DNA of 64,000 nucleotides from an uncultured Thermoplasmata archaeon (GTDB lineage: Archaea; Thermoplasmatota; Thermoplasmata; Lutacidiplasmatales; UBA184), in NCBI GenBank assembly GCA_963809035.1, contig CAWEHV010000002.1:1716701-1780700 (forward strand), given 5' to 3'. Each line of letters starts with the position of its first letter. The stretch's first letter is position 1. This document shows, piece by piece, positions 5,881 to 63,970 of this stretch. The position numbers were made by a program, and so were the translations under genes. The notes under the pieces were generated by a model. It searched no databases. It was not told the origin of the DNA and worked only from the letters and a program-made list of their open reading frames with translations.

Positions 5881-5938
5881 CCACATTTCTATTGAAAATG
5901 GATATATCTACCACCCCTATTCCCGGTCCGGGCGAACG

Positions 5939-43855: not shown

Positions 43856-43904
43856 AATCAGTGACAGATCTAAAGGGGTGGAACGAGGAGGGAAAATCCC
43901 TAGT

Positions 43905-45335: not shown

Positions 45336-45465
45336 GCATCAGCTCTCTCCCTCATAAATGTGAGCAGCTCCGGAACTCTCAGGGCTTGCCCATGCCTAGT
45401 TGTTATCAGTGGTTTCGTTCCTCCCACGTCGCATCGCTCGTTCCCCTCTTCGCGAGGATCGATCG

Positions 45466-45669
45466 ATGCAGGCAGCCGGCATCCGGAATCCGCCCGCCGA
45501 ACGCGACCCCACGCCGACAGACGCCAACCATGGAGCCCCCCGCCTCCGCACCGTCACGGGAAACCGTTTCCCGCGCAAGTGCTCATGCGGGTGCGGCTGC
45601 GAAACCCGCCAAGACCGAATGACTCTCTACTTTGCCCATTTCACGCGGAGTCAATCGTGCTCTGCATAG
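45466..45669 (+). CDS. Small protein (67 aa) with conserved N-terminus '...HGAPRLRTVTGNRFPRKCSCGCG', truncated paralog of 49010-49741
   Basis: ~100-nt block about 85% identical to 49025-49135. Differences fall at third codon positions of this + frame (gga/ggc, cgt/cgc, ccg/cct, tca/tcg), which is what coding selection would produce. Confidence 0.45.
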   Translation: MQAAGIRNPPAERDPTPTDANHGAPRLRTVTGNRFPRKCSCGCGCETRQDRMTLYFAHFTRSQSCSA

Positions 45670-45839
45670 CCCGTGCTCGGCGCGAATCTACAGCCTCGGT
45701 AGGCATCCCCCTTCGAGTTCGCGAGCGAACAGGGAATCGAGTCCTGTTAAGGAAACGATTCCCGGCAGGAGATAGCTCGTAGAGTCGCCGACGCGAACTC
45801 GATGGACCAAGAGACGCGGATCCGAAGCGCAGTTCGGAG

Positions 45840-49009: not shown

Positions 49010-49741
49010 ATGCAGAGCATCCACCACTCAACGCCAGAGACCCGAACGCCGACCGAAGCCACACACGGAGCCCCTCGCCTCCGCACCGTCACGGGCAACC
49101 GCTTCCCTTGCAAGTGCTCGTGCGGGTGCGGCCAGTCGATCCCGCGCGACCCGGAGATCCGCATCGTGGGGGACTTCGGCGCGCCACGCCCGTATCCAGC
49201 CTACCTGCGCGAGCACTCGCTCGACTACGGGAGCTATCGCGGTCGGTGGCAGTCGCGCCGGGAGACGCTGGCCGCGGTCCCAGGGTTCGTTCCCGCAACT
49301 GCCCATTTGGCCGATCCGGACGAGGAGAGGACCCGAAGCCCGCCATTCGGGGACGACCCTGCCCACACCGAGGCGGACGCGTCCCCGAGCCCCGAGGCAG
49401 GGCGTCCTTGGGCCTCCGGCCAGCTTGTTTTCAATGCGGGCCAATTCGAGTCTGCGCGGAGCGGGTTCGCCGACTACGCGATAGACGACGAGACGGCTGC
49501 CCAGCTCCGCACCCGCGTGAACCGGGTCATCCTCGAGGACCTCGAACAGAAGGTTCTGGCCCTGAGGGCCCTCCACGCGAAGCTCCGGGACCTGGAGGCG
49601 GGGCCCTCGTTCGGGGAAGTAGTGGCGCGTTCGCGGCCGGGCCGACCCAAACCCCGCGAGGTCGCATGTTCGAGATCCGCCTGCGCATCCTGGACCTGCG
49701 GGAGCGGGAGAGCGATCTCCCGTCCTTCATCGGGATCGTAG
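49010..49741 (+). CDS. Hypothetical protein with N-terminal 'HGAPRLRTVTGNRFPCKCSCGCG' module and coiled-coil region; may be fused by frameshift to the HicB-like ORF that follows
   Basis: Full-length paralog of 45466-45669. Ends in a frame overlapping 49666-49920. Confidence 0.35.
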   Translation: MQSIHHSTPETRTPTEATHGAPRLRTVTGNRFPCKCSCGCGQSIPRDPEIRIVGDFGAPRPYPAYLREHSLDYGSYRGRWQSRRETLAAVPGFVPATAHLADPDEERTRSPPFGDDPAHTEADASPSPEAGRPWASGQLVFNAGQFESARSGFADYAIDDETAAQLRTRVNRVILEDLEQKVLALRALHAKLRDLEAGPSFGEVVARSRPGRPKPREVACSRSACASWTCGSGRAISRPSSGS

Positions 49742-49920
49742 AGGGGTTTCCCCAGGTCCTGGTGCACGCGACGACAGTCGAGCAGGGGGAGAGGGACCTG
49801 ACGAACGCGCTGATCGAGCACCTGAGGCGGCTGCAGGATCACGAGACAACTCGGATCGACTGGGATGAGTTCCCGACGGTGCGAGTCGTTCGGTTGAGAC
49901 TAACCCCTCTCGCGGGATAG
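49666..49920 (+). CDS. HicB-like / UPF0150-fold small protein (84 aa)
   Basis: 'FEIRLRILD...SFIGIVEGFPQVLVHATTVEQGERDLTNALIEHL' follows the HicB N-domain pattern (beta-hairpin, 'PG/PQ' turn, 'T.GET/QGE..EAL'). Confidence 0.4.
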   Translation: MFEIRLRILDLRERESDLPSFIGIVEGFPQVLVHATTVEQGERDLTNALIEHLRRLQDHETTRIDWDEFPTVRVVRLRLTPLAG

Positions 49921-49936
49921 GCGTTCCCGCAAGGTG

Positions 49937-52900
49937 TTACTCCTCGCCTGCCCAATACTCGAGGAACCCTTCCACAAGGACCTCCTTCGTGGCGGCTCGG
50001 GACCCGGGAATTCCCGCCTCTTTCCACCTCTCCCTGAGTTGCGGGATGGTTTCTCCTGCGAGCTTCTGCTTCATGAGCGTTAACTCGACCGGCGAGCGCT
50101 TCGGACTGATAACAGCCCCTTCAGACCACTTCTTCTCAAATTCAGCGAGTTCTCGTTCGAGTGCTCCAACGTACTCGTTCTTGGAGGTATCCGTCCGTGC
50201 CTGAAGGCGAAACTCGTGTCTCATCCTGCCAAGGACCCGGCGAAAACCTTCCCTCGCCCACTCTTGGGTCCCCGACCTGACTTGGTAGTAGGATTTGGCG
50301 GAGAGATCGTCTTGGCAACACTCGACGAGGAATCCCCAACCTCTTTCCGAAAATTCAGCCTGAGCGGGGATAACGAAGGTAACATCTCTCATCCAGCCGA
50401 CGAGCGCGGGACGCAGCTTCTCTGAGAGGTGTTCAATGAAGGTTGGGTTTGAGACGAGGTGATGCATGAGTTGTAGCTTTGCCTCGGCGGCCCTCGAATC
50501 ATTTCCGGTGGCGTTTACTGCGCTAACCGCTTGCACGAACAACTCAATTCCCTCGCCCTCCGCGAGGATGAGACGAACTTTTTCTCGAACATCTCTCTCA
50601 TTTTCAGTTCTGAGTCGCTTCAGGCGGTCAGCATCGCCAAAGACTCCCGCCTCTTCGAGCAGAGCAATCGCGCGGTCTACGGTCCCTCGGTCGGGCTGTG
50701 CCCCCGACACGTACTGATAACCGAGAAATCGCCCTTCCACCCCTTTGACAAATGTCGGGTCGAGTTGGGCCTGATGTTCCTCTGCGAGCTGCCAAGCGCG
50801 GGAGAGGTCCTCAGCACGCTCGAGGCATTCGATCGCACCCTTGAAGTTCTGGTCTTCGAGTTCGAGGGAAGCCAAGCGTTGTAACGCCAGTTCTTTGCCC
50901 CTCGCGTCTCGCGTGCCAATGACACGAGCAAGGAGCTCCTTTGTTGCAGGTCTCTCCCCATCATGAAGACGCAGGGCAACAACGGCTGAGAGCATATTCG
51001 GGTCCCGAGCGTAAACAAGGGGGTCAAGCTGGTCGGTCCAGGTCTTCAACCGGCTCCATGCGTAGGATGATGTGTAATCCCGGCGGAGCGGCCCGACGGC
51101 CAGTTGGAGCCGTGGCATCGCTCCGCTCAAGCCCTTGATAGCGGGCGAGAAGTTACCGAGCCGGGCAGAATCTTCGGCCTGTGCAATCTCTACGTTCGGA
51201 GAGCCCATATCGGTCGACTTCAAGTAACTTTGAGCGGCCTCACTCCAGAGTTGACTCGCTCCAATAAGGGCTGCCTCGGCAAAGGCATCGGCTGCCCGAC
51301 GATACTGACTTGGAGCTTGATCCTGTCCCGCGCCGGAGTCCGCCAACGCCTTCCACTGCTTCCCTGCTTCTTCCCAGTTGGATGCTTTAGTAGCCCCCTC
51401 AGCTAGCACGGTGCGCGCTGCGACGTACTGTCGGCCGAGCAGCCGTTGCAGTCGGTTCCTTTCAATAACCCGCACAACGATGTCGTGTTTACCTTCCTTC
51501 AGCAGGAAGTCACACAGCTTGACCATCGGTGCCACATCGTCCCTGGCGGTTTTCCAGAGCACCGTCTCGTGCAACTCGACCAAATCATCGATGAGTCGGA
51601 GCTCCTGAAGGTGCTCGGATAATCGTCCCTTGGAGCCGTCGATCGTCGGAACGTCGGGGGACTGGATCAGGAATTTGAGATAGGCCGTGGCAGCGGCCTT
51701 TGCAGTGCGGCCCTCAGAGCACATTAAATCAGAGTAAAGCAACCATCCTTCATGTTCGAGAGAACGAGAACTAGACAGTGACAGGGTCCGGCGAACTTCG
51801 CTCCATTGTTCACCGTGAACATAGGCCTGGGCCGCCTTCATCCGGAAGACGCCGCCGAACTGGGACCAATTGTCCCCGGCCTGCTTCCAGGCGATTTGAG
51901 CGCGGGTGCCCTCACCCTTTCGATAAGCGGTGCCAGCCTCATCCTCCAGTTGTTCAGCCCTAACCTCGAGCAAGAGGTGTTGGGCCTCAAGATGGTGAGG
52001 TGCCCTATCCAAGCAGTCAAGCGCATACGCGAGCATTCGAGCATCCCGCTCCTCGCGATACAAGTCCAGATATTTTCTGGCATCCGCTACCCAGTTTCGA
52101 TCATCCTCGGCGGCAAGCGCAGGGTCGCCGCTGAGTCCCCGGATGTTGTCTCGATGAGTGCAATCGACCTCCTTCATCCTTGCCCATATCTTCTGGACGG
52201 CCTCCGCCTCGTCGAAAACGAAAAGATACTTTGTTGAACGAGTGACGGCGATGTAAAGCCTGTTCAGATGGTAAAGGACAGGCATCCGGGATCGCAATCC
52301 GTCCTCCGGTTCGGTGTCGCGGATCGTCTGCTCGGCGAATTCAGAGAAAATCGGCCGCGAGCCGATCTTGTAGAGGATCACGCGTTCAAATTCGAGGCCC
52401 TTGATATCAGAAATTGTGTGTAGACGGACGGAAGCGAGGACCTTGTCCAAGGAGAGGTCAACTTCGCGCCGTGCGACGAGTCTTGCGATTCGCGCCTCAC
52501 CATGAATCCCGTTGAGAACTTCCAACAGGTGACGGTCGCTCGAAAGGAACTTCAGTATGTCTTCCTCATCTTCGTCCCAGATGAGGAGCGCCGTCCCGGG
52601 TCGAGGATTACGTAGGAGTTGTATGAGGGCAACATCGTCTAGTTCGCCCGATACTTCGTAGCATTCGGGTTCGCGGCCCCAAGGCTCTCTCGCCCGCTGC
52701 TCGACGACGGCTTCCCGAGCATAGTGCCTTCGGCGTCTCTGTACCGCGTTTGCAAGATTCACTATCGGTTGCGGGGTCCTCTGATTGAGTTCGAGATCGG
52801 TCTGTCTCAGTGGGTCACCTTTGTAGAACAAAGCCTTGATATGAGTCCAGTTGAAACCAGTCGGGTTGATTGTCTGTTGGGGGTCGCCTGCGAGTGCCAC

Positions 52901-54253
52901 TCTGATTCCTTTGCTGGGGAGTTGCGACTCACCCTTGAGGAGATATTCTAGGACCCGAAACTCGACTCGGGTCAAGTCCTGGGCCTCATCCAGGTATATC
53001 TCATCGAAGATCGCGGGAGGGTGGTCCTTCACAGTATCCCAGGCTGCGAGCGCCAGATCAATATCGTCGTAGTATCCGTTGGACCGAAGCCACTCCGAGT
53101 ACCTTTCGTTCAACGAGATGACTTGTTCCAGATCCTCCCGGGTCAGGTCGCTGGTGAACTTCTTCGGGACGGAACTCTTTCGACCAGTCACGAAGAAGTC
53201 GTCGATTGTCAGCGGGGAGTCCTCCCTGAGTCCCTTCAGGAGGCTTCGGATGACATACCATGCAAACTCAGCGCTGACCCTCTTTGCTCGACCGTATTTT
53301 TTCTCGACTTGGAGGAATTCGCGATTGAACCTTCCGAACCCGACCCTATGCTCGGGCTTCTCGAAGGGCGCACGGCTATGCACATCTAAGAGTCCCCTTA
53401 GGACGTCAGGGAATGACTTGAACTCGCAGGTCCCGTCCTGCTCTGCCTTGGCTGTCTGTCTGTGCTTGTAAGTCAATGCAGCGTCGATGTTCTGACGAAG
53501 CAGATCAACGACCTTCTGGCTGTAGGCGGTGCAGAGCAACTTGGCCTGATAGCCCTCGCCTCGACAACTTGCGATGACCCACGCTGCCCGGACAGCGAGC
53601 ATGCTGGTCTTGCCAGTACCTGCTTGTCCGTTGATGAGGATCGGAGTGGGGGCATATATCGATTCAATCTGGCGAGGGCTCGGGATGATGTTTGCCGATG
53701 ACTCAAGCCACGCGATGGCGCTGTCCATCTCTTCCGGTGGAACGTTCAGTAGCTGTCGGTAGTCGGCTCCTGACCGCCCGGGTGGTGCATCGAGTCTCCG
53801 GCGATCCGGCTCGATGGGAATGATTACGTCCTTAATCTCAGCGGCCATGGGGGACCGCGCAAGGACCCTCTCTCGGAGTGCATGATCCTCGTCGTGAGAC
53901 GTTGTCAGATCGTCGACAAGTACGAGTGGAAGTTCAGCCTCCTCCTCGTCGCGGATTACCCTGAAGTAGCCGCGAATTTGCCTTTGATCCCCTCGAAACC
54001 TGTAAACTGTGTAACCATCCCTGTCCTTTCCGCAGTTGCGAATTCTGAGACTCGAATTGGGGTTTGCCGGTGGCCAGTTTTCTTGGAAGTAGAGATTGCG
54101 AAACGACTCCCAAAGGTGCTCGGCCCGCACTGGATCGCTCTTGCGCAGTTTTTCTATAGTCTTCTTCGCCCGCTTCGATAGGCAAATGACGAAATCGGCG
54201 CCGTTCGGCGCCTCTTTCCAATAGCGTTCCCACAGAGAGTTGCCGGGTCCCAC
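49937..54253 (-). CDS. 1438-aa UvrD/PcrA-like SF1 helicase (N-terminal ~700 aa) fused to a ~700-aa alpha-helical (TPR-like) C-terminal domain
   Basis: Walker A 'INGQAGTGKTSML', motif II 'IYLDEAQDLT', 'TISDIKGLEFERVIL' and 'LYIAVTRSTKYLFVF' (motifs V/VI). C-terminal half is helical repeats with no nuclease motif seen. Confidence 0.7.
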   Translation of the reverse strand: MGPGNSLWERYWKEAPNGADFVICLSKRAKKTIEKLRKSDPVRAEHLWESFRNLYFQENWPPANPNSSLRIRNCGKDRDGYTVYRFRGDQRQIRGYFRVIRDEEEAELPLVLVDDLTTSHDEDHALRERVLARSPMAAEIKDVIIPIEPDRRRLDAPPGRSGADYRQLLNVPPEEMDSAIAWLESSANIIPSPRQIESIYAPTPILINGQAGTGKTSMLAVRAAWVIASCRGEGYQAKLLCTAYSQKVVDLLRQNIDAALTYKHRQTAKAEQDGTCEFKSFPDVLRGLLDVHSRAPFEKPEHRVGFGRFNREFLQVEKKYGRAKRVSAEFAWYVIRSLLKGLREDSPLTIDDFFVTGRKSSVPKKFTSDLTREDLEQVISLNERYSEWLRSNGYYDDIDLALAAWDTVKDHPPAIFDEIYLDEAQDLTRVEFRVLEYLLKGESQLPSKGIRVALAGDPQQTINPTGFNWTHIKALFYKGDPLRQTDLELNQRTPQPIVNLANAVQRRRRHYAREAVVEQRAREPWGREPECYEVSGELDDVALIQLLRNPRPGTALLIWDEDEEDILKFLSSDRHLLEVLNGIHGEARIARLVARREVDLSLDKVLASVRLHTISDIKGLEFERVILYKIGSRPIFSEFAEQTIRDTEPEDGLRSRMPVLYHLNRLYIAVTRSTKYLFVFDEAEAVQKIWARMKEVDCTHRDNIRGLSGDPALAAEDDRNWVADARKYLDLYREERDARMLAYALDCLDRAPHHLEAQHLLLEVRAEQLEDEAGTAYRKGEGTRAQIAWKQAGDNWSQFGGVFRMKAAQAYVHGEQWSEVRRTLSLSSSRSLEHEGWLLYSDLMCSEGRTAKAAATAYLKFLIQSPDVPTIDGSKGRLSEHLQELRLIDDLVELHETVLWKTARDDVAPMVKLCDFLLKEGKHDIVVRVIERNRLQRLLGRQYVAARTVLAEGATKASNWEEAGKQWKALADSGAGQDQAPSQYRRAADAFAEAALIGASQLWSEAAQSYLKSTDMGSPNVEIAQAEDSARLGNFSPAIKGLSGAMPRLQLAVGPLRRDYTSSYAWSRLKTWTDQLDPLVYARDPNMLSAVVALRLHDGERPATKELLARVIGTRDARGKELALQRLASLELEDQNFKGAIECLERAEDLSRAWQLAEEHQAQLDPTFVKGVEGRFLGYQYVSGAQPDRGTVDRAIALLEEAGVFGDADRLKRLRTENERDVREKVRLILAEGEGIELFVQAVSAVNATGNDSRAAEAKLQLMHHLVSNPTFIEHLSEKLRPALVGWMRDVTFVIPAQAEFSERGWGFLVECCQDDLSAKSYYQVRSGTQEWAREGFRRVLGRMRHEFRLQARTDTSKNEYVGALERELAEFEKKWSEGAVISPKRSPVELTLMKQKLAGETIPQLRERWKEAGIPGSRAATKEVLVEGFLEYWAGEE

Positions 54254-54830
54254 GAACTCGCTTCAGGGGACATACCACTCTTAAACACGACCCTTCCGAC
54301 CCACCCTTTCGTCGGGGTTTGGCACACATTCGATGCATCTTCGAAGTTGACATCCCTTCCAACGGGTGGGATTTCCGACATGATCCGATGGTGGGCGGAG
54401 GTCAAGGAATCCCTAGCGCTCATCGCGGTCGGTCATCGTCACGCAATTGGGGGAAGGCAACCTTCACAAACGGGGTTGAAGTGACGCTACGCCTGTCGGC
54501 GTGACGTAGGCTCATGATTTCCCATCGTTTCGTCGTTGGGTCCTTCCAAAACGTGGTCCATAGGCCCCGACCGTGGGTTCTCACCGGGCGGGCGCCCCGG
54601 AGGCTGGCTCCAACTCCCGGTCGATCCCCCCGCCGCGGCCGAAAGACCCCCGTTCCGTCCCTTCCCCGGACCCCTTAATCACACCAGCCTCTGGTCCGCC
54701 GCTTCTTCCGAACAATCCCTCAATTAATTGAGGGATACCAATGGAGACTGCACCGGTATTACCCGCGCGCGAAGGGTACCGAGGGTGGGGAAGGGACCAG
54801 GGGGGTCCTCAACAGATGATACCCCCCCCT

Positions 54831-55015
54831 CTGTGTAATGTTTCATAGGACATTACACTTAGGGGGCATATCCTATGTTCTTACCCCCAAGTTTCCAAAC
54901 CCTTCCCCCTCTAAGTTTCCCTACGCGCGTGAATCCGGGTGAGGCTCCATGTAGGGGGCATGTCATACATGCCCCATGCGAAAGCCCGGGCAAACCAAGG
55001 TCTGGCTCACGCGAG
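54831..55015 (+). repeat. Left terminal inverted repeat, including a 9-bp-stem hairpin (GGGGCATGT/ACATGCCCC)
   Basis: Compared directly with the right end. The hairpin is kept by compensatory substitutions. Confidence 0.7.
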
Positions 55016-55182
55016 ATCAGGTTTCCCAACTCGCCGGTCGCCACGGGCTCCGCTTCTGCGTAGTGCGTCCGCGCAAGGCTGGAGCGGGCGAGGGATACGC
55101 GACGATCGTACGCACCTACGACACCAAGGGACAACCGATCCCGAGCGCTGAATCCACAGGACGCGGTCGGCCAGATGGCTAG
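54976..55182 (+). CDS. 68-aa protein encoded inside the left repeat arm ('MRKPGQTKVWLTR...VVRPRKAGAGEGYATIVRTY...')
   Basis: A homologous, frame-disrupted copy exists in the right arm on the opposite strand. Nucleotides diverge but residues are conserved. Confidence 0.35.
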   Translation: MRKPGQTKVWLTRDQVSQLAGRHGLRFCVVRPRKAGAGEGYATIVRTYDTKGQPIPSAESTGRGRPDG

Positions 55183-55963
55183 GGAAAATCGATCTGTACA
55201 GCTGAACCCGGCACCGAGCCCCCCGGTTTCGGTTGCTCAGAAGCCGAAGGCGCCCCCCACGAACTCCAAGACCTAAGAACAACCGGCCCAATGGCCCCCC
55301 GACTTCAAACTCGGGTGTAATCCGGTGATTCAAGTCCTTGGGGTTAGCCTCGTACCACGCGCCGCCTCAGAAGACTCGATACTCCGAGTCGTCAGTGTTC
55401 TCCGGCGACGTGGAGGCCGGTGCGACAAGGCCCGTCAAACCCGCGAGGACAATCTTGGCCTCGATGATCTGCGCGGACGGACTGGCCGTTAGGTCCCAGA
55501 GTCCTCCTGTGGGGAGATGGACCCGGATTCGGAAGGTGTGATGTTGGTTGAGAAGCAACCAGAACTGACTCGGTCGGATTAGTCCACCGCGGCGGGCCTG
55601 GAGAATCTCTCGACCCAAGCGAAGGGCCTCTCCGTAGTCACCGCGAGTGTCTAGAAAGAGGTCCGAGGCCATGCTGGGTTGACGTCCGGAGACACAATGA
55701 ACCTTCGTACCCGCGAACTCCCTGCGGCCATAGCATTCGTCGACCCAGACTCAGCGCACTCGTTGTCAGCAACGGGACCCAATCCGATAGGCACGTGAGA
55801 TCCACTCGGCATGGGGGGAGCAGGACGTAACCGGGCTCCCGGGGCCTGGGAAGACCTCGGAACGGCTCCACACCCGCCCCGGACCGATCGAGGGCCAGGG
55901 CGACCCGTTTCCGACGGCCAATCCGGGGCTACTTCGGGGGGATCGGGAAGACGGGAGCACCGC

Positions 55964-56149
55964 TCAGTCCCGGATCTTGCTCTCGACTTCCTCAGCGGAG
56001 ATTCTGGGTTGGCCTGCGCGGCGCTCCAGCAGCGCGACGAACTCGGGCGGGGGGTTCTCCAAGAAGAAGTCTTCGAACGCCGAGTCCCAGGTCTCCGCGG
56101 GGCTCAGCACGATTTTGGTCGTTGGGCCAGCCGCGCGTCGTCGCGTCAT
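55964..56149 (-). CDS. 61-aa hypothetical protein, downstream partner of the HicB-like gene
   Basis: 4-nt overlap (ATGA) with the HicB-like stop. Confidence 0.25.
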   Translation of the reverse strand: MTRRRAAGPTTKIVLSPAETWDSAFEDFFLENPPPEFVALLERRAGQPRISAEEVESKIRD

Positions 56150-56385
56150 GCCGGGTCAGGAGGTGGGCCACGTCGGAGCATCTCGGAGATCGCCTCGTCC
56201 AGGTCCTCCAGATAAGGGGCGGGATCCCCGTTCGATTCCAGGTAGAGAGAGATTGCGTCGGTCAGGTTGCGCCGGAGTTCAGGAAGCGAGTCCGCCTGAG
56301 TAATACAGCCCGGGAGTTCCTTCACTGACGCCCAGTACGCCTCGTCGTCGAACCCGCCGTCCAGATGGACTCGCGCCACGGTCAC
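56146..56385 (-). CDS. HicB-like (UPF0150) antitoxin-fold protein, N-domain only
   Basis: 'VHLDGGFDDEAYWASVKELPGCITQADSLPELRRNLTDAISLYLE' matches the HicB N-domain pattern. 4-nt overlaps with both flanking small ORFs. Confidence 0.55.
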   Translation of the reverse strand: MTVARVHLDGGFDDEAYWASVKELPGCITQADSLPELRRNLTDAISLYLESNGDPAPYLEDLDEAISEMLRRGPPPDPA

Positions 56386-56564
56386 TTGAGCAACTCGAAC
56401 AGGCGGGCGTGGTCCCGGGCCACCTTGGGAAGTTCCTCAATCGCCCGCCCGATCAAGTCGCTGTCCGGCTTGCCCGCCTCGCGCCGAAGCTGTTGCGTCC
56501 GCAGGAGAATCATCCGCGCGCCGGCCACCCCGGGGGGCTCGGGGTCTCCCTCTTCGGGCGCCAT
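56382..56564 (-). CDS. 60-aa hypothetical protein, upstream partner of the HicB-like gene (no HicA motifs recognised)
   Basis: Overlaps the HicB-like start by 4 nt. No 'GSHH'-type HicA signature. Confidence 0.25.
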   Translation of the reverse strand: MAPEEGDPEPPGVAGARMILLRTQQLRREAGKPDSDLIGRAIEELPKVARDHARLFELLK

Positions 56565-57034
56565 TTCGATAACGGAAATGCAGGCGTGTTAGATAACTTC
56601 TGTCTTCGAACGTACCGAGCCGAATACGCCCACAGGCCCGAACCCCACTCGGTTCGGCTGTTACGCCTCCACAAGCTCTTTCGATTTCACCCCTGTCTTT
56701 CGGCCCTGGTAGATCCGGACTTGTCGAGCGCGTGCCTTCGCCGCCCATACTCCTGACTCTTGGTTTCAGGTGGGGCTTTGCACTGCAAGTACGCGACATG
56801 GGTCCATTCCTCCTCGTCCCCCTGATGGCGGAAGATCCCGAGCTTGCCATTGAACAAGAGGAACCGGAAGGACTCGTCCTCGGTCACCTCCATGCTGCGA
56901 TTGTCCCTTGGATTAGCGTGCCGTCGTCGCGGTAGGTGCGTACGAATGTACCGAATCCTTCCCCGGCACCGGCGCCCTTCGGCCGCACCACGCGCTACCG
57001 GAAGTAGTAACGCGAGACGGCGAGATGGACCTCG

Positions 57035-57219
57035 CTCCGCGTGAGCCAGACCTTGGTTTGCCCGGGCTTTCGCATGGGGATGAATAATCATCCCCCTACA
57101 TAGAGCCTCACCCGGATTCACGCGCGTAGGGAAACTTAGAGGGGGAAGGGTTTGGAAACTTGGGGGTAAGAACATAGGATACTCCCCCTAAGTGTAATGT
57201 CCTATGAGAGATTACACAG
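57035..57219 (-). repeat. Right terminal inverted repeat, including an 8-bp-stem hairpin (GGGGATGA/TCATCCCC)
   Basis: Reverse complement aligns to 54831-55015. Confidence 0.7.
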
Positions 57220-57910
57220 GCAGTAATCCCCTGATTTGGACCGTAGACCCGGGCCCAGCTCACCCCTCTTGTCAGCCGTGGATATCCCAGCCCTTCGGAA
57301 TCACGTGTTACCTACTACCCCCTCGCTCGAGAAGGCGTGAGCAAGCCAAGGTACGGATGGGTGGAGGCCCCGGCAACTACCCCAGGTTGGGTTTTGGTGG
57401 TAGGTCGGGGTGCTCCGACCGGTGCTGAATGGGGCGGGGTCAGCGGCACCGTTATGGTGGCTAAACTTCCAGAGGTCCGTCGATCGACCGCTGAGTGGAT
57501 GCCTTGAATCCTGCGACAAAGGTAAGTTCGGCCCTAGAGGGCAGCCACGCCCAACGCCGAAACTCGTCCCAGAACGAGCAGGAGGGCCCTTCCCCGCCCT
57601 CCAACACACATTGTCGAGGTGTCGGGTCTCGGGACACCGCGTCAGAGCCAGTGGGCCCCTGTAGAGGGCATTGCGGTGAGTTGGATTCCCAACCGACCCA
57701 CGAGGTGGATGCGGTGTCTGTTCCTTCAACATCAAAGCGTTGGGCTTGACCGCGTCTACTCCAAGTCTCGTTCTAAGGTGCATTGCGCCTACCTTCGATT
57801 CGACGCATTCGAGCAGCGGAAGCTTCGGTAGTACTGAGTGTGCCTGTTATTGCCGGCGTGAAATGAGAGTATTGCTTTGAAAGGGAGTCCCAAAAGGGTT
57901 TGGCGCACGG

Positions 57911-59086
57911 GTGGCTGCCCGGGCTAGTCAGACGATGAATGGAAATCCCCCTGGCCCACCTCACCCGTCTGCTACAGTCGTTCCCCCGACGATATCCCAT
58001 CCTGTAGCAAGGGATTCTCGCCTACGTCTGTTCTTTGCCTGGCCGGCTGGCCGCAACGACGGTTCGAAGCTCTCCCCGTGGTGGATCCTCGCCCCGCCGA
58101 TTGGAGTTGGACTCGGTGTAGTAGTAGTCTTTCTGATTTTGCACTACCAATTTGGCTATCACTTTAGTCCCGAGTTCATCAGCGTCATGGTATCCGCGGT
58201 CACCGTGTATTCCGCCTGGTCCGTAGTCAGAGGATCGATGGGGGTCCGCTGGGTATACACGGTTCTGGAAAAGACGCGAGAAGAGACGGAAAAGAGGAGG
58301 ATCTTGCACCTGTGGGTCTGCGAGTGGGCTGGTTTCATACTCGGACCAATTTCCCTAGCTGGTGCCGGGTACATTCACTTCTTCGGTCCCCGCAACGGGG
58401 TAACGCTCGCACTGGCGTCGCTCCTCCCGGCTGGAACGATTGTCTTTCTCGCCCTCTTCACTCGTTACTCAACACGCGCCTTCTCGGATGATGTGACACG
58501 CCAACTCGAGAAGACTGCACAACATTGGAAGGAACAAACGCAACACCTAGTCGATGCGACCGCAGCTTTGAGGCAGGTTGTGGAGCTGCAATCCGGGGCG
58601 ATGGATCTGACCCGCACGGGCGTTCGACTCAATGAAGAGCTACTCCAGCTCGAAAGAGAGAGGGAGAGACTCCGGATCGAGGGGCAGGAAGTCCAGCGAA
58701 GGCGACTCCAACCTCAGCTTGGGTTTTCGTTGGAGATTCCGAACGCGCTCATCAAGCACATGAACGTGTACGTTCACAATCGGGGAATGGATGGGCGCAA
58801 CCTAGTCTTGTACTTCGGGATTCCTCCAAACCAAGTCCTCCAGTACGTCGCACAGGGAATCACCCCACAGGAGGTGGCCCATGTTGACTTCCACGATATC
58901 GCGGAATGGCCGACAGATGCCAATCTCGCGATTACGTGCGAAATCTCGGACGTTCTCGGAAATCGGTATAGATACGTCACCTATCGAGAATATCATCGCA
59001 ACCTGTCGGGTGGCCTAATCCAGACGTCATCACCAACCGTCACACCCGCAGGGTGGATTTATCCAGATCCGTCTACGGTCACATGA
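57911..59086 (+). CDS. Hypothetical membrane protein (4 TM) with coiled-coil segment
   Basis: 391-aa ORF. TM helices 'WWILAPPIGVGLGVVVVFLIL', 'ISVMVSAVTVYSAW', 'AGFILGPISLAGAGYIHFF', 'LALASLLPAGTIVFLALF'. Confidence 0.4.
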   Translation: MAARASQTMNGNPPGPPHPSATVVPPTISHPVARDSRLRLFFAWPAGRNDGSKLSPWWILAPPIGVGLGVVVVFLILHYQFGYHFSPEFISVMVSAVTVYSAWSVVRGSMGVRWVYTVLEKTREETEKRRILHLWVCEWAGFILGPISLAGAGYIHFFGPRNGVTLALASLLPAGTIVFLALFTRYSTRAFSDDVTRQLEKTAQHWKEQTQHLVDATAALRQVVELQSGAMDLTRTGVRLNEELLQLERERERLRIEGQEVQRRRLQPQLGFSLEIPNALIKHMNVYVHNRGMDGRNLVLYFGIPPNQVLQYVAQGITPQEVAHVDFHDIAEWPTDANLAITCEISDVLGNRYRYVTYREYHRNLSGGLIQTSSPTVTPAGWIYPDPSTVT

Positions 59087-59308
59087 CAACCAATCCCGTC
59101 GCCTTCTGCAGACGAAGGATCAGATTGTTGGAAGCGAGGGGCTACAAGATGGGTGGATTCGAAGGTTAGGGGAGCGGTGGGTGACTGGAGGAGATTACGT
59201 GCAAGCTAGGTTGCACCTAACCTGCAGTCGGGGTGACGGGAGGCCGCTCCAGCCTCTCGTAGTCTAATCAAGTTTATTCGCACCGGAGGGGTTAATCCAG
59301 CACCGGAA

Positions 59309-60268
59309 ATGATCTCAGGGAACACGGACTCATCAGCCGCAAAGGCCCAGATATCCGCGATTCGGTTTCAAGCCGCTCAACTCCTCTCCACACTGACCCT
59401 ATCAGCCCAAGCCTCTGGCGGTGCCGGCGGAAACTTACTCATCAACCTAGGTATCCGGGAACTGGTTCCGCATGGTTGGAAGGGCACAAGTCGAAAGATA
59501 GTATCTGGGTTGGAACGCTCGAACAGGATCGCAGCGGGGGGGAGGATTCTTCAGCAAGTTGGGGCCCTCGTCAGTGAATCTAGGGCCTTCGCCGCCTCTC
59601 ACTCCATCGTCGATAACTCACTGCGGTCGGGCCCAAACTCCCAGAAACTGCTTCGAAAACTCGGCGCGGCTTTTGATCGCGGCAGTCCAACTTCCCGTTT
59701 GCACAACCTCATCGGGGCTCTGGACAGAATCTCCCTACTGGATTTGGTTACGAATCAGGAGGTGGTCCGAGTTCTACAGGAGCGCCGGTTCAAGCATGCT
59801 AGCCTGCGAGTAAGGAGAGAGGCTCCGGGGCTCGGGAAGATCCTGCAAGAACTTCCCGGGCCACAAGATTTGGCATACTATGAGGCTCGCCTAAGCGCCT
59901 TCAGAATCTCACCCGGCGTAAGCAAGTCGATTGACGGAGCCCTTGAGCGACTCAAACAAGGGGGACCAGACGGGTTCAGGCAGGGTGTCTCATCGATTAG
60001 GGTAGCCTTCGACAACTTGATCGTCGAGCTCACTCAAGAAGGCGACTGGAAGGTCGGACTGAGCCGACTCGTGGTATCAGAGGAAGAGCGGGGCGTGGCC
60101 AAGCAGTTTCACCACATGCTAAGCCGATCCGAGCACCCCGGGACAACTACCTCGAGAGAGGTCTTGCTGCTCACGCTCGAGCTTTTCGCCGTCCTCTCGA
60201 CACGGCTGGTCCAACTGCGAGGGTTGCAGGGGGTAGCCCAGAGTGGCAATTCCAAGGAGAATCGATAG
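59309..60268 (+). CDS. Hypothetical 319-aa protein
   Basis: Clean ORF. No motifs recognised. Confidence 0.35.
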   Translation: MISGNTDSSAAKAQISAIRFQAAQLLSTLTLSAQASGGAGGNLLINLGIRELVPHGWKGTSRKIVSGLERSNRIAAGGRILQQVGALVSESRAFAASHSIVDNSLRSGPNSQKLLRKLGAAFDRGSPTSRLHNLIGALDRISLLDLVTNQEVVRVLQERRFKHASLRVRREAPGLGKILQELPGPQDLAYYEARLSAFRISPGVSKSIDGALERLKQGGPDGFRQGVSSIRVAFDNLIVELTQEGDWKVGLSRLVVSEEERGVAKQFHHMLSRSEHPGTTTSREVLLLTLELFAVLSTRLVQLRGLQGVAQSGNSKENR

Positions 60269-60476
60269 CATCCCGGCTGTTCGAACAACCTTGAGGCCCG
60301 GCTGCTTGTTCTTCGCGAAAGTCTATGCAATGGACATCGCAGATTCTGAAGTTTTCAATGGCGTAGACCTCTCCAGCTGGCACACGAGAACAGGATGATG
60401 CCGCGCTGGCCAGGGCTCCCGAGGCCTAAGGAGCCACGCGTTACGGCGGGGCCCAGGCGTCGCTTAAGTTCGGCAA

Positions 60477-62567
60477 CTATCTGTTTAGGGAGACATCTTC
60501 GTCAGAGTCAAAATCCCTCTTGATTTGCTCCAATCTCGCCCTTTCTTCTTCTCCGGCGGCGTAGGCTTCGAGCGGTTGCCAAAGAGAGGGACTGATCTTT
60601 GCGAGTCCAAGCCGACGCTTCAACGATGGCCAATCCCACACGGTCCCCCATGGGACCAATCCGACGTATGCGACCGGGTCTATCGAACCGACCGTCGCAA
60701 CTACACCGGTGACTTTTCCCGACCCCTTGAGACCTAGCTCGTCATAGAGGATTCTTGGCGTGTTTGAGTTCGACTTGATGTCCTTTAGAAATCGCAATAC
60801 GATTCCGGCATTCCCCTTGGGATCCAGCTCTGACTGATTATTGACGGTCCACGGATCTGATCCCCGCTCCATCAGATGGGGCTTACACTCTATTAGGAAA
60901 ATCTCGGATTCCTTCCCGGGCCTGTACGCAATCACATCAACCTCCCTTCCCCCTTGCCACTTCAGAATCCGTCTGATGGCTACCACCTCGAGTCCCTCTC
61001 GTCGGACGAGCTCTGCGACTAGAAGCTCCGCCAGGACACCTCTGATTCCGCTTAGATTGTCCTCGAAACTCTGAACATCCGCCCTTAGTCGCTTGAGGGG
61101 GCCCGATTCAACATAATGCCGCAGTTTCTCTGTGTCAGGAAACACAAATTCCCTAACCTCCACATCTGATCCCGCACTGGAAATGAGGGACTCAATTACC
61201 TTCCAGACCTGGCCTCCGCCACCGGAATAGTCGGTCGCAGCCTCCAACAAAAGCCAGTACTCAGATGCATTGGACGCGATTGTCCCAAACCCGGGCATGA
61301 AGACTGCGTAACTGTACCCGTTTCCCGGTGTCGTTGGGTGCTTCAATCTTATCAGGCGAATCTTTCCTCCACCATTCCTTGCAATGACAAGGAGCCCAGT
61401 GAAGAGGGCGGTGAAGTAGTTCATCTGAACATATGGGTGCGAAGCTCCGACTCGTACAGGCCTCATCTCGAAAATCTCGTCGAGACGATCGCGGGAGGGC
61501 ACCTTGTCCGACTTCTGAACGACAAGCTCGGCAATTTCAAACGCAGGTATCTTACTCACAAGCTCAAACCTAATCCCACGTAGGATCGTCTTCTGAAGGC
61601 TGAGCTCGCCGAGCTTGGCCAGCGTAAGGTTGCCGACATTACCAAATTCGTTATCAAACTCATCGAAGGAAGTACTGACCCAAACTCGGCGAAAGAGTTC
61701 GAGGTAATGAGTAAATTCCAATGGGCCCAAAAGTTTCCACCAGAGGAAGATTACAGCGAACTTGAATCCCCCAAGTAACTCGCCTTCGCGATCGTTCCGC
61801 CCCCGGCGGCTCGCGCGGAGGCGATGCCTTGTCGTGGTCCCGCCAAATTCAGACCCGCTCCGGAAGAGTTCCGAGTAAGCCCACTCCACGGTCCGCTCAT
61901 CGTGGAACGTGACGTGGACAAAGTCTATGGTGGCCGTTGGTGCGAAGTCCTTCAGTGATAGCTCTTTAGCAGGCTCGCTTAGTCTCACGACGTAGTGACT
62001 CTCGAGCAGCCCGCTCATCGACTTGAGGTAGGGCGTGACGCGTTCGGCGGCCGCTTGCAGTTGTTCCCAAGAACCCGCCGATATCAGTTCGGTTCGAATC
62101 CACCAGACGTTCCTTATCAACTTCTCATGCTCAGAGTTACCTGATGGGATCAGAAAGCCTTCCTGGTTCCAGGTGAAGGCCATACCGATTCCTTCAACCG
62201 CCTCAACTCCGAAAGTCTCAGGCGAGGTGAATGCTTCCGAAAGAAGGGAATACACAGGGACGAGGATGCCCAGTTTATAGCCCAGTAACAATCTGTCGGG
62301 TGATTCGACAACTTCTCCCCACTCTTCGAGTTTTTCCCGGAGTTCGCTGCCCCCTTCAATGTCCAACAGGGTACCAATCGAGTGAAGCGCACCCAGGAGA
62401 GTCCGGATTGAGAACTGCCGGTTGAAGGTTTGCACGACGTCTGAATCGTCCGAGGAGCCCCCGGTTGCAGATTTCTTAGTCTTTCGTTTGGCCACGGTTT
62501 CAGCCTTGCAATTCCCCCGATCCCGTACTCGGTCATAGATACTCCGGTCGTGACAAACTGAGTCCAC
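60477..62567 (-). CDS. 696-aa protein with C-terminal PD-(D/E)xK-type nuclease-like motif
   Basis: 'GGREVDVIAYRPGKESEIFLIECKPH' gives D...E-x-K spacing typical of restriction-endonuclease-fold nucleases. Lower-GC gene. Confidence 0.45.
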   Translation of the reverse strand: MDSVCHDRSIYDRVRDRGNCKAETVAKRKTKKSATGGSSDDSDVVQTFNRQFSIRTLLGALHSIGTLLDIEGGSELREKLEEWGEVVESPDRLLLGYKLGILVPVYSLLSEAFTSPETFGVEAVEGIGMAFTWNQEGFLIPSGNSEHEKLIRNVWWIRTELISAGSWEQLQAAAERVTPYLKSMSGLLESHYVVRLSEPAKELSLKDFAPTATIDFVHVTFHDERTVEWAYSELFRSGSEFGGTTTRHRLRASRRGRNDREGELLGGFKFAVIFLWWKLLGPLEFTHYLELFRRVWVSTSFDEFDNEFGNVGNLTLAKLGELSLQKTILRGIRFELVSKIPAFEIAELVVQKSDKVPSRDRLDEIFEMRPVRVGASHPYVQMNYFTALFTGLLVIARNGGGKIRLIRLKHPTTPGNGYSYAVFMPGFGTIASNASEYWLLLEAATDYSGGGGQVWKVIESLISSAGSDVEVREFVFPDTEKLRHYVESGPLKRLRADVQSFEDNLSGIRGVLAELLVAELVRREGLEVVAIRRILKWQGGREVDVIAYRPGKESEIFLIECKPHLMERGSDPWTVNNQSELDPKGNAGIVLRFLKDIKSNSNTPRILYDELGLKGSGKVTGVVATVGSIDPVAYVGLVPWGTVWDWPSLKRRLGLAKISPSLWQPLEAYAAGEEERARLEQIKRDFDSDEDVSLNR

Positions 62568-62965
62568 TCCCGTTGACCACTCAGGAGGGGCCGCAGTTAA
62601 CAGATCGCAGATTGACGAGAATCTAGGCTATCGCCTGTGGTCAAAGTCTCCCTTCAACCCACTTTCAATCTCCGTGTCTCTGGAAAGGAATGTATCCGTC
62701 GATGCCGAAATCGAATCAATACCCGTCGCCTTCTCAGTCAGTACACTAGATCTCTGCAATCGATATGGAGGCAAGGCTTCTCGCACCGCAGTCTGACTGG
62801 CCAACCCGACCTCCGGTGGGTGCAAGGACCTTGCACCTGAGAACAATCAAACTGCGTGCGGGTGAGTTACTGGAGTCCTACGAGATTCGTTTGCCCACTC
62901 GTATGTCCGTTGGATGCGAGGTTGCCAGTCTAAGTAGGCGTGGGCTCTCCTAGGCGTGGAGCGGT

Positions 62966-63970
62966 TTGGGCTTGCTCGACGGTGGTCCAGGTCTCGCCCG
63001 CAGAGTTGATTGGACCACCCAAGAGTGGACGATTGCCTGGGACGCCTGTCCAAAGGAAAAGCAGAGCTATGGTCAAACAGACAGGAATGTCGTCGAAGTT
63101 GCCGATCTCATTGACCGGACGCCCTCGGCAGTCTCTCGCGCCTTTGGGAATCTTTGGGGAGCCAAGACAAATGGCAAGAAGGGGCTGCGAAACTTTGCAG
63201 GAGCGGCCCTCGCGGTTGTCGAGCAATACGGGACGGACTATGATTCACTTCACCGTGAGGCTGCCGGTTTCAGACGCGAGCTGGTCCGCGATTCCCTCAC
63301 CCCTCGGATTGACATCGAATCTCCCAATAACGAGGGCGTCTTACCTGACACCGAGATTCGTAGCGCATTGCGCCACCTCAGATTGACTCGCCCGTACTAC
63401 TTCATCTACCACAGGGTTGGGAGCCTGAGCCAGGGAATCGGGTTCGTTTCCGAACACTCGTTTGAGATTGGGGCCGGGCTCATTCAACTGGTTAAGTGGA
63501 TCGACGAACGAGTTCGGAGAAAGGAGCGAACCGTTCCTGAGGCGGAGGTAACCCGCAGCCGCGCCTGGGTTCGATTCCGCGAGGGGAAAGTAGAATCGGT
63601 CGAGGTGGAAACTCTACACAGACGACTTCCCAACTTTCACTCTAATGAACTGGGGGCTGAGGGTCGCGAACAGCTCGCCTCGTTTCTTGTATTCATCAAG
63701 GGACTTAGAGAGGTCAAGTCCTCAGACCAATCTGAGACCTCCCGCCCGAGACACGTGGCACGTGATCACAGTCGCAAAGTCAGAAGAATCACTAGGCTAT
63801 TGAGAGTCCCGGTGACACACCTTTGCCCGGACTGTATCGACCAACTCGATCGACTCCTTCGCCAGGCCGAATCCCCAGGGTTCCGCAAGGCGGTCCGCGA
63901 ATTTCGTCAACGCAAGCGGACAACTTCAGTCGTGGCCGGACAGCTCACCCTTGACTCCTGGGAACCGTAG
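62966..63970 (+). CDS. Hypothetical 334-aa protein
   Basis: ORF only. C-terminal 'CPDCIDQLDRL' could be half of a zinc ribbon. Confidence 0.3.
   Translation: MGLLDGGPGLARRVDWTTQEWTIAWDACPKEKQSYGQTDRNVVEVADLIDRTPSAVSRAFGNLWGAKTNGKKGLRNFAGAALAVVEQYGTDYDSLHREAAGFRRELVRDSLTPRIDIESPNNEGVLPDTEIRSALRHLRLTRPYYFIYHRVGSLSQGIGFVSEHSFEIGAGLIQLVKWIDERVRRKERTVPEAEVTRSRAWVRFREGKVESVEVETLHRRLPNFHSNELGAEGREQLASFLVFIKGLREVKSSDQSETSRPRHVARDHSRKVRRITRLLRVPVTHLCPDCIDQLDRLLRQAESPGFRKAVREFRQRKRTTSVVAGQLTLDSWEP

What the first reader, a model, noticed from the sequence alone, without database searches (positions are those of the whole stretch)
54831..57219. Non-autonomous ~2.4-kb element with ~190-bp near-identical terminal inverted repeats and a HicB-like cargo
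54831-55015 and 57035-57219 are reverse complements with only a handful of differences, beginning CTGTGTAAT. A perfect hairpin inside each repeat differs in sequence between the two ends but keeps full pairing (GGGGCATGT...ACATGCCCC versus GGGGATGA...TCATCCCC). The pairing is therefore conserved at the structural level, as expected for a protein- or RNA-recognition site. Each arm continues into a ~68-aa ORF conserved at the amino-acid level (VVRP.KAGAGEG...VRTY) despite nucleotide divergence; the right copy is frameshifted. The interior has three overlapping small genes, one with a clear HicB/UPF0150 antitoxin fold. No transposase is present, so this looks like a large MITE-like or cargo-carrying element.
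Basis: seen in the sequence. Interest (0 to 1): 0.7.

Follow-up and report, generated by a model that had tools for sequence, protein, structure and literature searches.

The report
Inverted remnants of a mobile element's end
The two near-identical inverted repeats are real, but they are two dead, head-to-head copies of the control/attachment region and first gene of a rare recombinase-carrying mobile element, not the ends of a miniature transposon.

Summary
Arms 54831-55013 and 57038-57219 are about 185-nt inverted copies, with a hairpin whose sequence differs but whose pairing is kept.

The MITE or cargo-transposon reading is not supported.
- There is no target-site duplication.
- There is no further A-type copy in about 74 kb of the source contig.
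- The left "end" is not a boundary. The 250 nt to its left are a diverged inverted copy of the same module, sharing a 26-bp palindrome (PAL).

Each arm is a module: PAL, then a ~115-nt conserved arm, then a hairpin abutting the start codon, then the 5' part of a ~135-aa gene. Intact genes (140 and 131 aa) turned up only in an exhaustive search. In the window the left copy is a 55-codon fragment. The right copy carries a TAG stop and a frameshift.

The 140-aa gene lies on a 16-kb plasmid- or virus-like contig (L012). There the same PAL and arm (97% identical to the right arm) sit next to a probable tyrosine integrase and a weak resolvase-like gene. Homology in every context stops exactly at PAL.

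Best reading: these are decayed, rearranged left-end remnants of an integrative element, with PAL as its probable recombination core. The HicB-like protein has no HicA partner. Interest is modest.

The parts
54581..54830 (-). X_win: a diverged, inverted paralogue of the arm module, reading leftwards from the shared palindrome. It has its own start-proximal hairpin TCCCTCAATTAATTGAGGGA (54717-54736) and a dead ORF start (RKKRRTRGWCD-stop).
   Evidence: I4, 73% complementary to the arm core. Alignments. nhmmer hit 54704-54859, E=4.7e-42 (this sequence is in the model). 80% identical to a second X-type copy just beyond the window.
54833..54858 (.). PAL(L): 26-bp palindrome GTGTAATGT-TTCATAGG-ACATTACAC. 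It is the shared centre of X_win and A_L and the probable recombination core or operator.
   Evidence: I8. The pattern occurs only twice in 64 kb against 0 expected. Two of 9 pairs carry double changes and 94% of cells are paired across the module alignment.
54831..54975 (+). A_L arm: the conserved non-coding module. It holds AAGTTTCC direct repeats at 54889-54896 and 54913-54920, and hairpin 3 at 54955-54975 abutting the ATG.
   Evidence: 93% identical to A_R and 90% to the L012 arm. Hairpin fold -16.3 kcal/mol.
54976..55182 (+). ORF68: an N-terminal fragment of the ORF140 family. Homology covers residues 1-55 only (54976-55140) and the rest is unrelated read-through.
   Evidence: P0001, 84% identity over residues 1-55. 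tblastn. Codon substitution pattern.
55367..55672 (-). 101-aa ORF with no family match. It is the last gene in the minus-strand series that starts at the right arm.
   Evidence: Called as a gene in L001, L003 and L008.
55853..55919 (.). 67-nt stretch shared (79%) with the cargo-less mini version of the structure in L005 (5024-5089).
55964..56564 (-). Three ORFs overlapping by 4 nt: 60 aa (56382-56564), a HicB/UPF0150-like 79 aa (56146-56385) and 61 aa (55964-56149). No HicA-like partner was recognised.
   Evidence: Pfam HicB_lk_antitox E=4.4e-6. PHROG HicB-like 3.9e-8. Nothing for the other two ORFs at E<=1.
56687..57075 (-). Right-hand ORF140 pseudogene. It has an in-frame TAG at codon 27 (56997-56995). 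Residues ~57-114 are in another frame (the MEVTEDES... part, 56893-56690).
   Evidence: P0001 residues 1-60 = 57075-56896; P0004 residues 57-114 = 56908-56735. Alignment.
57076..57219 (-). A_R arm: hairpin 3 at 57095-57076 and PAL(R) at 57192-57217 (GTGTAATCT-CTCATAGG-ACATTACAC in arm orientation). Palindrome and hairpin are identical to those of the L012 element.
   Evidence: 97% identical to the L012 arm.

Best explanation
Each 'terminal inverted repeat' is one copy of a module that belongs to a rare, recombinase-carrying mobile element. In order, the module consists of:
- a 26-bp palindrome (PAL, 9-8-9);
- about 115 nt of very conserved non-coding arm, holding two AAGTTTCC repeats 24 nt apart;
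- a GC-rich hairpin that ends at the start codon;
- the first gene of an operon, a ~135-aa protein of unknown fold.

In the episome-like relative L012 the module lies between a divergently oriented probable tyrosine integrase, next to a weak resolvase-like ORF, and a seven-gene operon.

In the window two such modules lie head to head, and both genes are dead. The left one is cut after codon 55. The right one has a stop and a frameshift, and is followed on the same strand by the 60-aa/HicB-like/61-aa/101-aa genes. A third (X_win) and a fourth (X3, about 64.3-64.7 kb, just past the window) are diverged copies of a sister subfamily.

Inferred mechanism: PAL is the crossover core, or at least the boundary, at which the element's recombinase joins the arm to other DNA. 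The arm carries cis-acting sites (recombinase or accessory binding sites, and/or the divergent promoter and leader). The window therefore shows integrated and then rearranged or deleted left-end remnants, not a unit that transposes.

What is shown: the module anatomy, the pseudogene status, the adjacency to recombinase-like genes in L012, and the sharp homology break at PAL in four contexts. What is inferred: that PAL is a recombination site, and how the inverted arrangement arose.
For: - Intact relatives exist. P0001 is 140 aa (E=1.4e-23) and P0004 is 131 aa. The window copies cover residues 1-55 (left) and 1-60 plus 57-114 in another frame (right).
- P0001 lies on L012, 16.4 kb at 65.7% GC. 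L012 holds about 30 tightly packed, mostly co-directional ORFs, a HerA/FtsK-like ATPase, a Dam methylase, a PHROG integrase match (phrog_1 at 1.4e-6, phrog_216 at 2.5e-6) and a weak Resolvase match.
- In L012, PAL (9860-9885) lies 97 nt from the called integrase start. An in-frame ATG inside PAL would give a 244-aa product.
- L012/window homology starts exactly at PAL. L012 9860-10166 matches window 54833-55141 at 85%, and 57217-56934 at 83%.
- The far side of PAL differs in four contexts: X_win, the right flank, a different gene in L005, and the integrase in L012. These far sides share no detectable similarity.
- The arm is far more conserved than the gene: 91-97% against 54-79% identity.
- The start-proximal hairpin is present in 7 of 8 modules with 6 different sequences.
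- PAL shows two compensated pairs.
- The related metagenome contig L005 holds a ~570-nt cargo-less version: PAL1-A ... X'-PAL2.
Against: - The integrase call is weak. It rests on PHROG only.
- No complete integrated copy with a recombinase and a PAL at both ends was found.
- No empty site was found.
- PAL(L) and PAL(R) are inverted relative to each other. They are therefore not an attL/attR pair.
- The X-PAL-A dyad needs an extra assumption, either a tandem junction or a sister element with symmetric arms.
- Only two lineages and one episome-like contig are available.
- The high conservation of the whole arm is more than typical att arms require. It would also fit a promoter and leader, an origin, or an RNA.
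Confidence: 0.6

Rival explanations
1. Purely regulatory module. PAL would be an operator or core promoter of a divergent gene pair, and the arm a structured 5' leader whose hairpin gates translation of the ~135-aa gene. The window copies would then arise by segmental inverted duplication, for example fold-back at the palindrome, plus gene conversion, with no site-specific recombination.
For: - PAL lies between divergent genes in L012.
- The hairpin abuts the start codon in all modules.
- The arm folds somewhat better than shuffles, z from -1.8 to -3.8.
- A 12-16-nt motif is repeated 92 nt apart in both the A arms and the distant L014 relative.
- X-PAL-A is a large imperfect palindrome centred on a short one, as fold-back duplication would produce.
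Against: - Homology among copies in four unrelated contexts ends at the outer edge of PAL within about 2 nt. Random duplication breakpoints would not give this.
- Most copies drive dead genes, yet their arms remain 91-97% identical.
- No sigma-70-type promoter or terminator was detected, and there is no Rfam match.
Confidence: 0.2
2. Invertible DNA segment. The two PAL sites are in inverted orientation, so a recombinase supplied in trans (or homologous recombination across the 185-nt arms) would flip the 2.4-kb segment. This would resemble Gin/Hin/Cin-type or tyrosine-recombinase switches with genes reading inward from both ends.
For: - The 26-bp dyad sites are inverted, with near-identical arms.
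- Genes read inward from both ends.
- A resolvase/invertase-like ORF and an integrase-like ORF lie beside PAL in L012.
- Patchy identity between the arms is compatible with repeated exchange.
Against: - Only one orientation is seen where it can be read: the window and L001/L008 agree. The other assemblies simply break in the repeat.
- No recombinase gene was found in or beside the segment.
- Both inward-reading genes are dead, and no outward-reading promoter or gene pair would make a flip matter.
Confidence: 0.12
3. One reading: a non-autonomous TIR transposon (MITE/MIC-like cargo element) spanning 54831-57219, mobilised in trans by a transposase encoded elsewhere.
For: - The inverted repeats are long and near-identical, with TG...CA-like tips (CTGTGTAAT...ATTACACAG).
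- There is small cargo and no transposase inside.
- The genome does hold other mobile-element debris: an IS66 fragment and IS630-like fragments.
Against: - There is no target-site duplication.
- No other copy occurs in about 74 kb.
- The pattern gave no hit in 185,579 representative genomes, IMG/VR, phage or plasmid collections.
- Homology continues outside the left end.
- The repeats consist of an upstream region plus the 5' part of a gene.
- The relative L012 carries a single arm, not a TIR pair.
Confidence: 0.06

Closest known systems
attP/attL regions of integrase-encoding integrative plasmids and proviruses (tyrosine-recombinase core site with flanking arms, lying next to int)
   Same: - A 26-bp core with 9-bp inverted half-sites around an 8-bp asymmetric spacer.
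- It lies next to a probable int gene in the episome-like contig.
- The same core and arm are joined to unrelated DNA in chromosomal contexts.
- The arm contains short direct repeats.
- The remnants sit in an island rich in orphan and defence-like genes.
   Different: - The recombinase assignment is weak.
- No attL/attR pair around a full element was seen.
- The arm is conserved along its whole length and runs straight into the first gene.
- A sister arm type (X) forms a dyad with it.
- A possible int start codon lies inside the core.
MITEs and mobile insertion cassettes (MICs, e.g. IS231-derived): non-autonomous TIR elements, some with cargo
   Same: Inverted terminal sequences, small cargo genes and no transposase inside.
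   Different: - No target-site duplication and no multi-copy dispersal.
- The ends are 185-290 nt of upstream region plus gene 5' end.
- There is no autonomous partner with the same two ends.
- The left boundary is not a boundary.
Phage and plasmid invertible segments (Mu G / P1 C / Hin; shufflons)
   Same: Inverted 26-bp dyad sites, long inverted repeats (P1 C has 0.6-kb repeats) and genes reading inward from each end.
   Different: No adjacent invertase, no constant region outside, both inward genes are dead, and only one orientation was observed.
HicAB type II toxin-antitoxin systems
   Same: The 79-aa protein matches the HicB/UPF0150 N-terminal domain and sits in a tight operon of small genes.
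   Different: No HicA-like partner, no DNA-binding domain on the HicB-like protein, and the match is at threshold.

Membership tests
MITE / mobile insertion cassette (TIR transposon derivative) | Terminal inverted repeats | tested here: met
   About 185 nt at 93-100% identity.
MITE / mobile insertion cassette (TIR transposon derivative) | Target-site duplication flanking the ends | tested here: not met
   The flanks CCCCCCCCT|CTGTGTAAT and ATTACACAG|GCAGTAATCC share no direct repeat.
MITE / mobile insertion cassette (TIR transposon derivative) | Several dispersed copies, and/or an autonomous partner with the same two ends | tested here: not met
   No further A-type copy in the window or in the next 10 kb. 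No hits in GTDB representative genomes, IMG/VR, phage or plasmid collections. L012 has one arm only. The whole source genome could not be scanned.
MITE / mobile insertion cassette (TIR transposon derivative) | Discrete element boundary or an empty site | tested here: not met
   Homology continues left of 54831 as the inverted module X_win. No empty site was found.
Integrative element attachment region (tyrosine-recombinase att site) | Core of inverted half-sites around a 6-8-bp spacer | tested here: met
   PAL is 9-8-9. It occurs only at module tips and its pairs are compensated.
Integrative element attachment region (tyrosine-recombinase att site) | Core adjacent to an integrase gene in the free or intact element | tested here: inconclusive
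   L012 has PAL 97 nt from an ORF with PHROG integrase matches at about 1e-6. There is no Pfam, NCBIfam or PDB support. A weak tblastn hit lands on an annotated integrase.
Integrative element attachment region (tyrosine-recombinase att site) | The same core joins the element arm to unrelated DNA at different loci | tested here: met
   Four different far sides, with the homology break at the PAL edge.
Integrative element attachment region (tyrosine-recombinase att site) | Direct repeats of the core bounding an integrated element (attL/attR), and an empty attB | tested here: inconclusive
   L005 has PAL1...PAL2 around about 570 nt, and the source has PAL(L)...PAL2 around 9.9 kb. Their relative polarity rests only on arm type. 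No recombinase lies inside, and no attB was found.
Integrative element attachment region (tyrosine-recombinase att site) | Recombination at the core | not testable with these tools
   Needs reads or experiments.
Site-specific invertible segment (Hin/Gin type or tyrosine-recombinase switch) | Both orientations present in a population, and a recombinase gene nearby | tested here: not met
   One orientation in the window and in L001/L008. No recombinase within 54.5-74 kb. Raw reads could not be examined.
HicAB toxin-antitoxin | HicB antitoxin domain | tested here: met
   PF15919 at 27.3 bits against a cut-off of 27. PHROG HicB-like family at 3.9e-8. The match is marginal.
HicAB toxin-antitoxin | Adjacent HicA toxin | tested here: not met
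   The 60-aa and 61-aa neighbours have no Pfam, NCBIfam, PHROG or PADLOC match at E<=1.
Known structured RNA (Rfam) | Match to a curated covariance model | tested here: not met
   No hit at E<=1 in 54000-58000, none at gathering score in the whole window, and none around PAL2.

The most novel reading that the evidence does not exclude
The PAL-arm module defines an undescribed family of integrative elements. The recombination core would overlap the recombinase start codon or promoter. A ~115-nt arm conserved along its whole length, ending in a shape-conserved hairpin at the first gene's start, would couple integration state to expression. Chromosomal inverted copies such as this one would remain substrates that an incoming element's recombinase can flip or capture, moving cargo such as the HicB-like operon.
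Probability: 0.15. Interest if true: 0.55.

Novelty: new member of a known kind. Interest (0 to 1): 0.3.

Why it matters
It shows how a textbook-looking "TIR element with cargo" can instead be two decayed copies of a mobile element's attachment/control region. That matters for automated MITE and transposon calling in metagenome-assembled genomes.

It also points to a very rarely sampled mobile element family. Only two intact copies of its signature gene were found among 1.84 billion cluster representatives standing for about 15 billion proteins. The family has an unusually conserved non-coding module, which could be tested as a recombination site.

Tried and rejected
- Word-indexed protein searches found nothing. 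Queries were ORF68, a reconstructed right-hand protein, and a chimera of six-frame translations of the arms.
- Exact-pattern scans found nothing real. GTDB representative genomes were scanned twice and IMG/VR three times. The two extra metagenome hits, L004 and L006, are chance or low-complexity matches.
- Protein-seeded scans of IMG/VR with ORF140, the L012 ATPase and the L012 integrase found nothing.
- Phage and plasmid collections gave nothing.
- Rfam gave nothing.
- Sigma-70 promoter and terminator scans gave nothing.
- An RHS/YD-repeat idea, raised by multi-stretch hits to giant repeat proteins, was dropped. Those hits are WD40, fn3 and RTX proteins matched by compositional noise.
- An archaeal replication-origin (ORB-like) reading and an archaeal TATA-box reading of PAL were considered and left as speculation. 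The host's domain is unresolved.
- Contig ends of other assemblies in or near the repeats were checked for structural variants. They are ordinary repeat or low-coverage breaks.
- A weak nhmmer extension outside PAL(R) was not confirmed by pairwise tests.
Full report

Yes. The repeat finder reports arms 54831-54974 / 57076-57219 (144 nt, 92% complementary). They are followed directly by 54972-55013 / 57038-57079 (42 nt, 100%). A pairwise alignment shows near identity for 183 nt, then recognisable but much weaker similarity to about nt 290.

Differences inside the identical part are few: two in the tip, two at nt 37-38, one at nt 118, and a cluster in one hairpin. That hairpin is GGGGCATGT-CAT-ACATGCCCC on the left and GGGGATGA-TTAT-TCATCCCC on the right. 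Both are perfect stems ending at the ATG.

Downstream, the two copies differ in a coding-like way. In the ORF68 frame, codons 14-58 show 12 synonymous-only and 25 non-synonymous differences, against 4/30 and 4/32 in the other frames.

The right copy has an in-frame TAG at codon 27, and only later a frame change. The interior holds 60-aa, 79-aa and 61-aa ORFs overlapping by 4 nt, plus a 101-aa ORF, all on the minus strand. The 79-aa protein is HicB/UPF0150-like at threshold. No transposase or recombinase was found inside.

**2. The repeat is a module, and the left "end" is not an end.**

The tip of each arm is a 26-bp palindrome (PAL): GTGTAATGT-TTCATAGG-ACATTACAC. A degenerate PAL pattern occurs only at the two tips in 64 kb, against 0 expected.

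The 250 nt to the left of the left arm (X_win, about 54581-54830) are a diverged inverted copy of the same module and share PAL as their centre. X_win has the same landmarks in the same order: a G-run/C-run, CCCTTCCCC, CCCT(A/T)CGCGCG, CCGG, a hairpin (TCCCTCAATTAATTGAGGGA), and then a degenerate start, RKKRRTRGW-stop.

A further X-type copy (X3) lies about 7.1 kb to the right of the right arm (PAL2 about 7.5 kb), just past the window end. It carries a PAL variant, GTGTGATAT-TTCTATCA-ATATCACAC, and was seen in L001 and L008. No more copies occur in the next 10 kb. Across the module alignment, PAL keeps 94% of cells paired, with two pairs changed on both sides.

**3. Other assemblies and relatives.**

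L001/L008 (an ENA contig of 380 kb), L002/L009 (GCA_049585255.1) and L003 (Logan) are the same strain, at least 99.9% identical. Where orientation can be read it is the same as in the window. The short assemblies simply break inside the repeat.

One metagenome scan found a real relative, L005/L007. It has an A-type arm: its 106-nt alignment to the left arm is 93% identical, and a third hairpin variant, GGGGCAGA-TTAT-TCTGCCCC, lies further along. The arm is followed by a stop-containing ORF start, a 67-nt piece matching window 55853-55919, and then an X-type module with PAL2. Together this is a ~570-nt cargo-less version of the structure.

L005's flanks are unrelated to the window's. Yet another 1.8-kb segment of L005 is 99.67% identical to window 4065-5881. 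These are therefore close genomes with mosaic islands.

**4. What the ORF is.**

Word-indexed searches found nothing. The exhaustive HMMER search of 1.84 billion representatives found two true homologues: P0001 (140 aa, 84% identity over residues 1-55) and P0004 (131 aa, 43%). The other four hits are giant repeat proteins and are noise. Both true homologues are singleton clusters.

tblastn shows the following:
- The left window copy covers residues 1-55 only.
- The right copy covers residues 1-60, plus 57-114 in another frame.
- X3 covers residues 1-129 in three frames and is closer to P0004.

So every copy in and beside the window is a fragment or a pseudogene. An AlphaFold model (pLDDT 70; two beta-alpha-beta-beta units and a basic tail) has no convincing structural neighbour.

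**5. Where the intact gene lives.**

P0001 lies on L012, a 16.4-kb Logan contig with 65.7% GC against 57.9% in the window. L012 holds about 30 tightly packed, mostly co-directional small ORFs, a HerA/FtsK-like ATPase and a Dam methylase, so it is plasmid- or virus-like.

Immediately upstream of the 140-aa gene is the same arm. It has the same PAL and the same hairpin as the window's right arm and is 97% identical to it. On the other side of PAL, 97 nt away and divergently oriented, is an ORF that matches two PHROG integrase families at about 1e-6. It can extend to an ATG inside PAL, giving 244 aa. Tail-to-tail with it lies a 179-aa ORF with a sub-threshold Resolvase match.

Support for the integrase call is limited:
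- no Pfam, NCBIfam or PDB sequence match;
- a weak tblastn hit to an annotated integrase;
- a shared C-terminal GDxxxRYA motif with the window's own integrase.

L012/window homology begins exactly at the outer edge of PAL and ends inside the gene. The DNA beyond PAL differs in four contexts (X_win, the right flank, the L005 flank, the L012 integrase), with no residual similarity among them.

**6. Conservation pattern.**

The four A-type arms are 91-96% identical over the first 99 nt and 83-97% over the whole arm. Codons 14-55 of the adjoining gene are only 54-79% identical.

The copies are also mosaic. L012 combines the right arm's palindrome and hairpin with a left-type gene. The hairpin before the start codon is present in 7 of 8 modules, in 6 different sequences. 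It is weak in the distant L014 relative.

A 12-16-nt motif is repeated 92 nt apart in both the A arms and L014. The arm folds somewhat better than shuffles. It has no Rfam match and no sigma-70 promoter or terminator consensus.

**7. Interpretation.**

The simplest account is that the arms are the control/attachment region plus first gene of a rare recombinase-carrying mobile element. The window holds decayed left-end remnants of two variants of it, lying head to head.

The right remnant continues into the 60-aa/HicB-like/61-aa/101-aa genes. About 1 kb of this, including the HicB-like operon, is absent from the L005 version.

I infer that PAL is the recombination core for three reasons: it is the sharp homology boundary everywhere, it has the 9-8-9 anatomy of tyrosine-recombinase cores, and it sits beside recombinase-like genes in L012. 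This step is not shown.

A larger unit, from PAL(L) to PAL2 (9.9 kb, with an A arm at one end and an X arm at the other), might be an integrated sister element with the right arm as an internal inverted duplicate. That unit holds no detectable recombinase, and PAL2's polarity can be judged only from arm type, so I do not press this reading.

The last is disfavoured by the missing target duplication, the missing copies, the non-boundary on the left, and the single arm in L012.

**8. Comparison and novelty.**

Functionally the structure resembles att regions of integrative plasmids or proviruses and their scars in genomic islands. It is not a member of the MITE/MIC class, because several defining features were tested and not met. 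It is not a complete HicAB system, because no HicA was found.

The element family itself appears unsampled in IMG/VR, GTDB representative genomes, and the phage and plasmid collections. I rate it a new member of a known kind, of modest interest. The unusually conserved non-coding arm and its shape-conserved hairpin are the part worth an experiment.

The host's domain is unresolved. The window's own integrase best matches an archaeal XerA model, while PurM and the inositol monophosphatase are closest to PDB entries that, from my own recollection, are bacterial; the tool output gives no organism names.

Noticed in passing
window 4036-5880 and 5939-7210: A 1.8-kb segment carries a YncE-like beta-propeller gene (4304-5506). 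It is bounded by 48-nt direct repeats (4036-4083 / 5833-5880, 88%) and is followed by a tyrosine integrase (XerA-like, PHROG integrase 5e-11). The segment is 99.67% identical to L005 1042-2858, but both flanks differ there, so it looks like a cassette-type mobile unit.
   Followed up: partly
window 17612-17824 and 18808-19019: A second inverted-repeat pair (~213 nt, 85-86%) encloses ~1 kb with a membrane-protein-like ORF. The arms translate to a transposase C-terminus that, from my own recollection, looks IS630-like (...SHLNPIETHFRTIRRW...; no family search was run). They therefore look like two inverted IS fragments.
   Followed up: partly
window 8390-8420, 8560-8616, 16902-16958, 30203-30266: A family of ~30-48-nt repeats containing CCCCCGGGGGTTCGAATCC (tRNA T-arm-like). 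They may be att-site or tRNA-fragment scars of other integrations.
   Followed up: no
window 45511-45597 and 49046-49132: An 87-nt direct repeat (87%) lying 3.5 kb apart, upstream of the large UvrD-like helicase region.
   Followed up: no
window 49937-54253 (-): A 1438-aa UvrD/GajB-like helicase with a long helical C-terminal region, immediately downstream of X_win. The neighbourhood (39982-47645 and 57911-63970) consists almost entirely of orphan ORFs. The 696-aa ORF there has a C-terminal segment that by eye resembles a PD-(D/E)xK nuclease motif (no database hit). The region looks like a defence or variable island.
   Followed up: partly
window 49879-49954: ARAGORN calls a tRNA-Glu(CTC) with an odd anticodon position. 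The Rfam gathering scan of the whole window found no tRNA, so the call is doubtful.
   Followed up: partly
window 22592-23272 (-): A truncated IS66-family transposase ORF (zf-IS66 plus part of DDE_Tnp_IS66).
   Followed up: no
window 13470-13637 and 15336-15503: A 168-nt direct repeat (75%) marks paralogous 5' ends of two adjacent orphan genes (13529-14935 and 15337-16710).
   Followed up: no
L008 11741-11840 (about window 64712-64810) and L005 4682-4771: About 100 nt on the far side of PAL2 ('Z': TCGTTTTTTTGGCACACTCTCCAGCTCTTGGGAG...) are conserved at ~83% between the two genomes. Similarity then stops abruptly. Their function is unknown, and they may be another arm type.
   Followed up: partly
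L012 1-15620: An episome-like 16-kb contig with a HerA/FtsK-like ATPase, a Dam methylase, about 25 tiny co-directional ORFs, integrase-like and resolvase-like genes, and six orphan genes after ORF140. It has no relatives in IMG/VR or in the phage and plasmid collections. It may represent an undescribed plasmid or virus group.
   Followed up: partly
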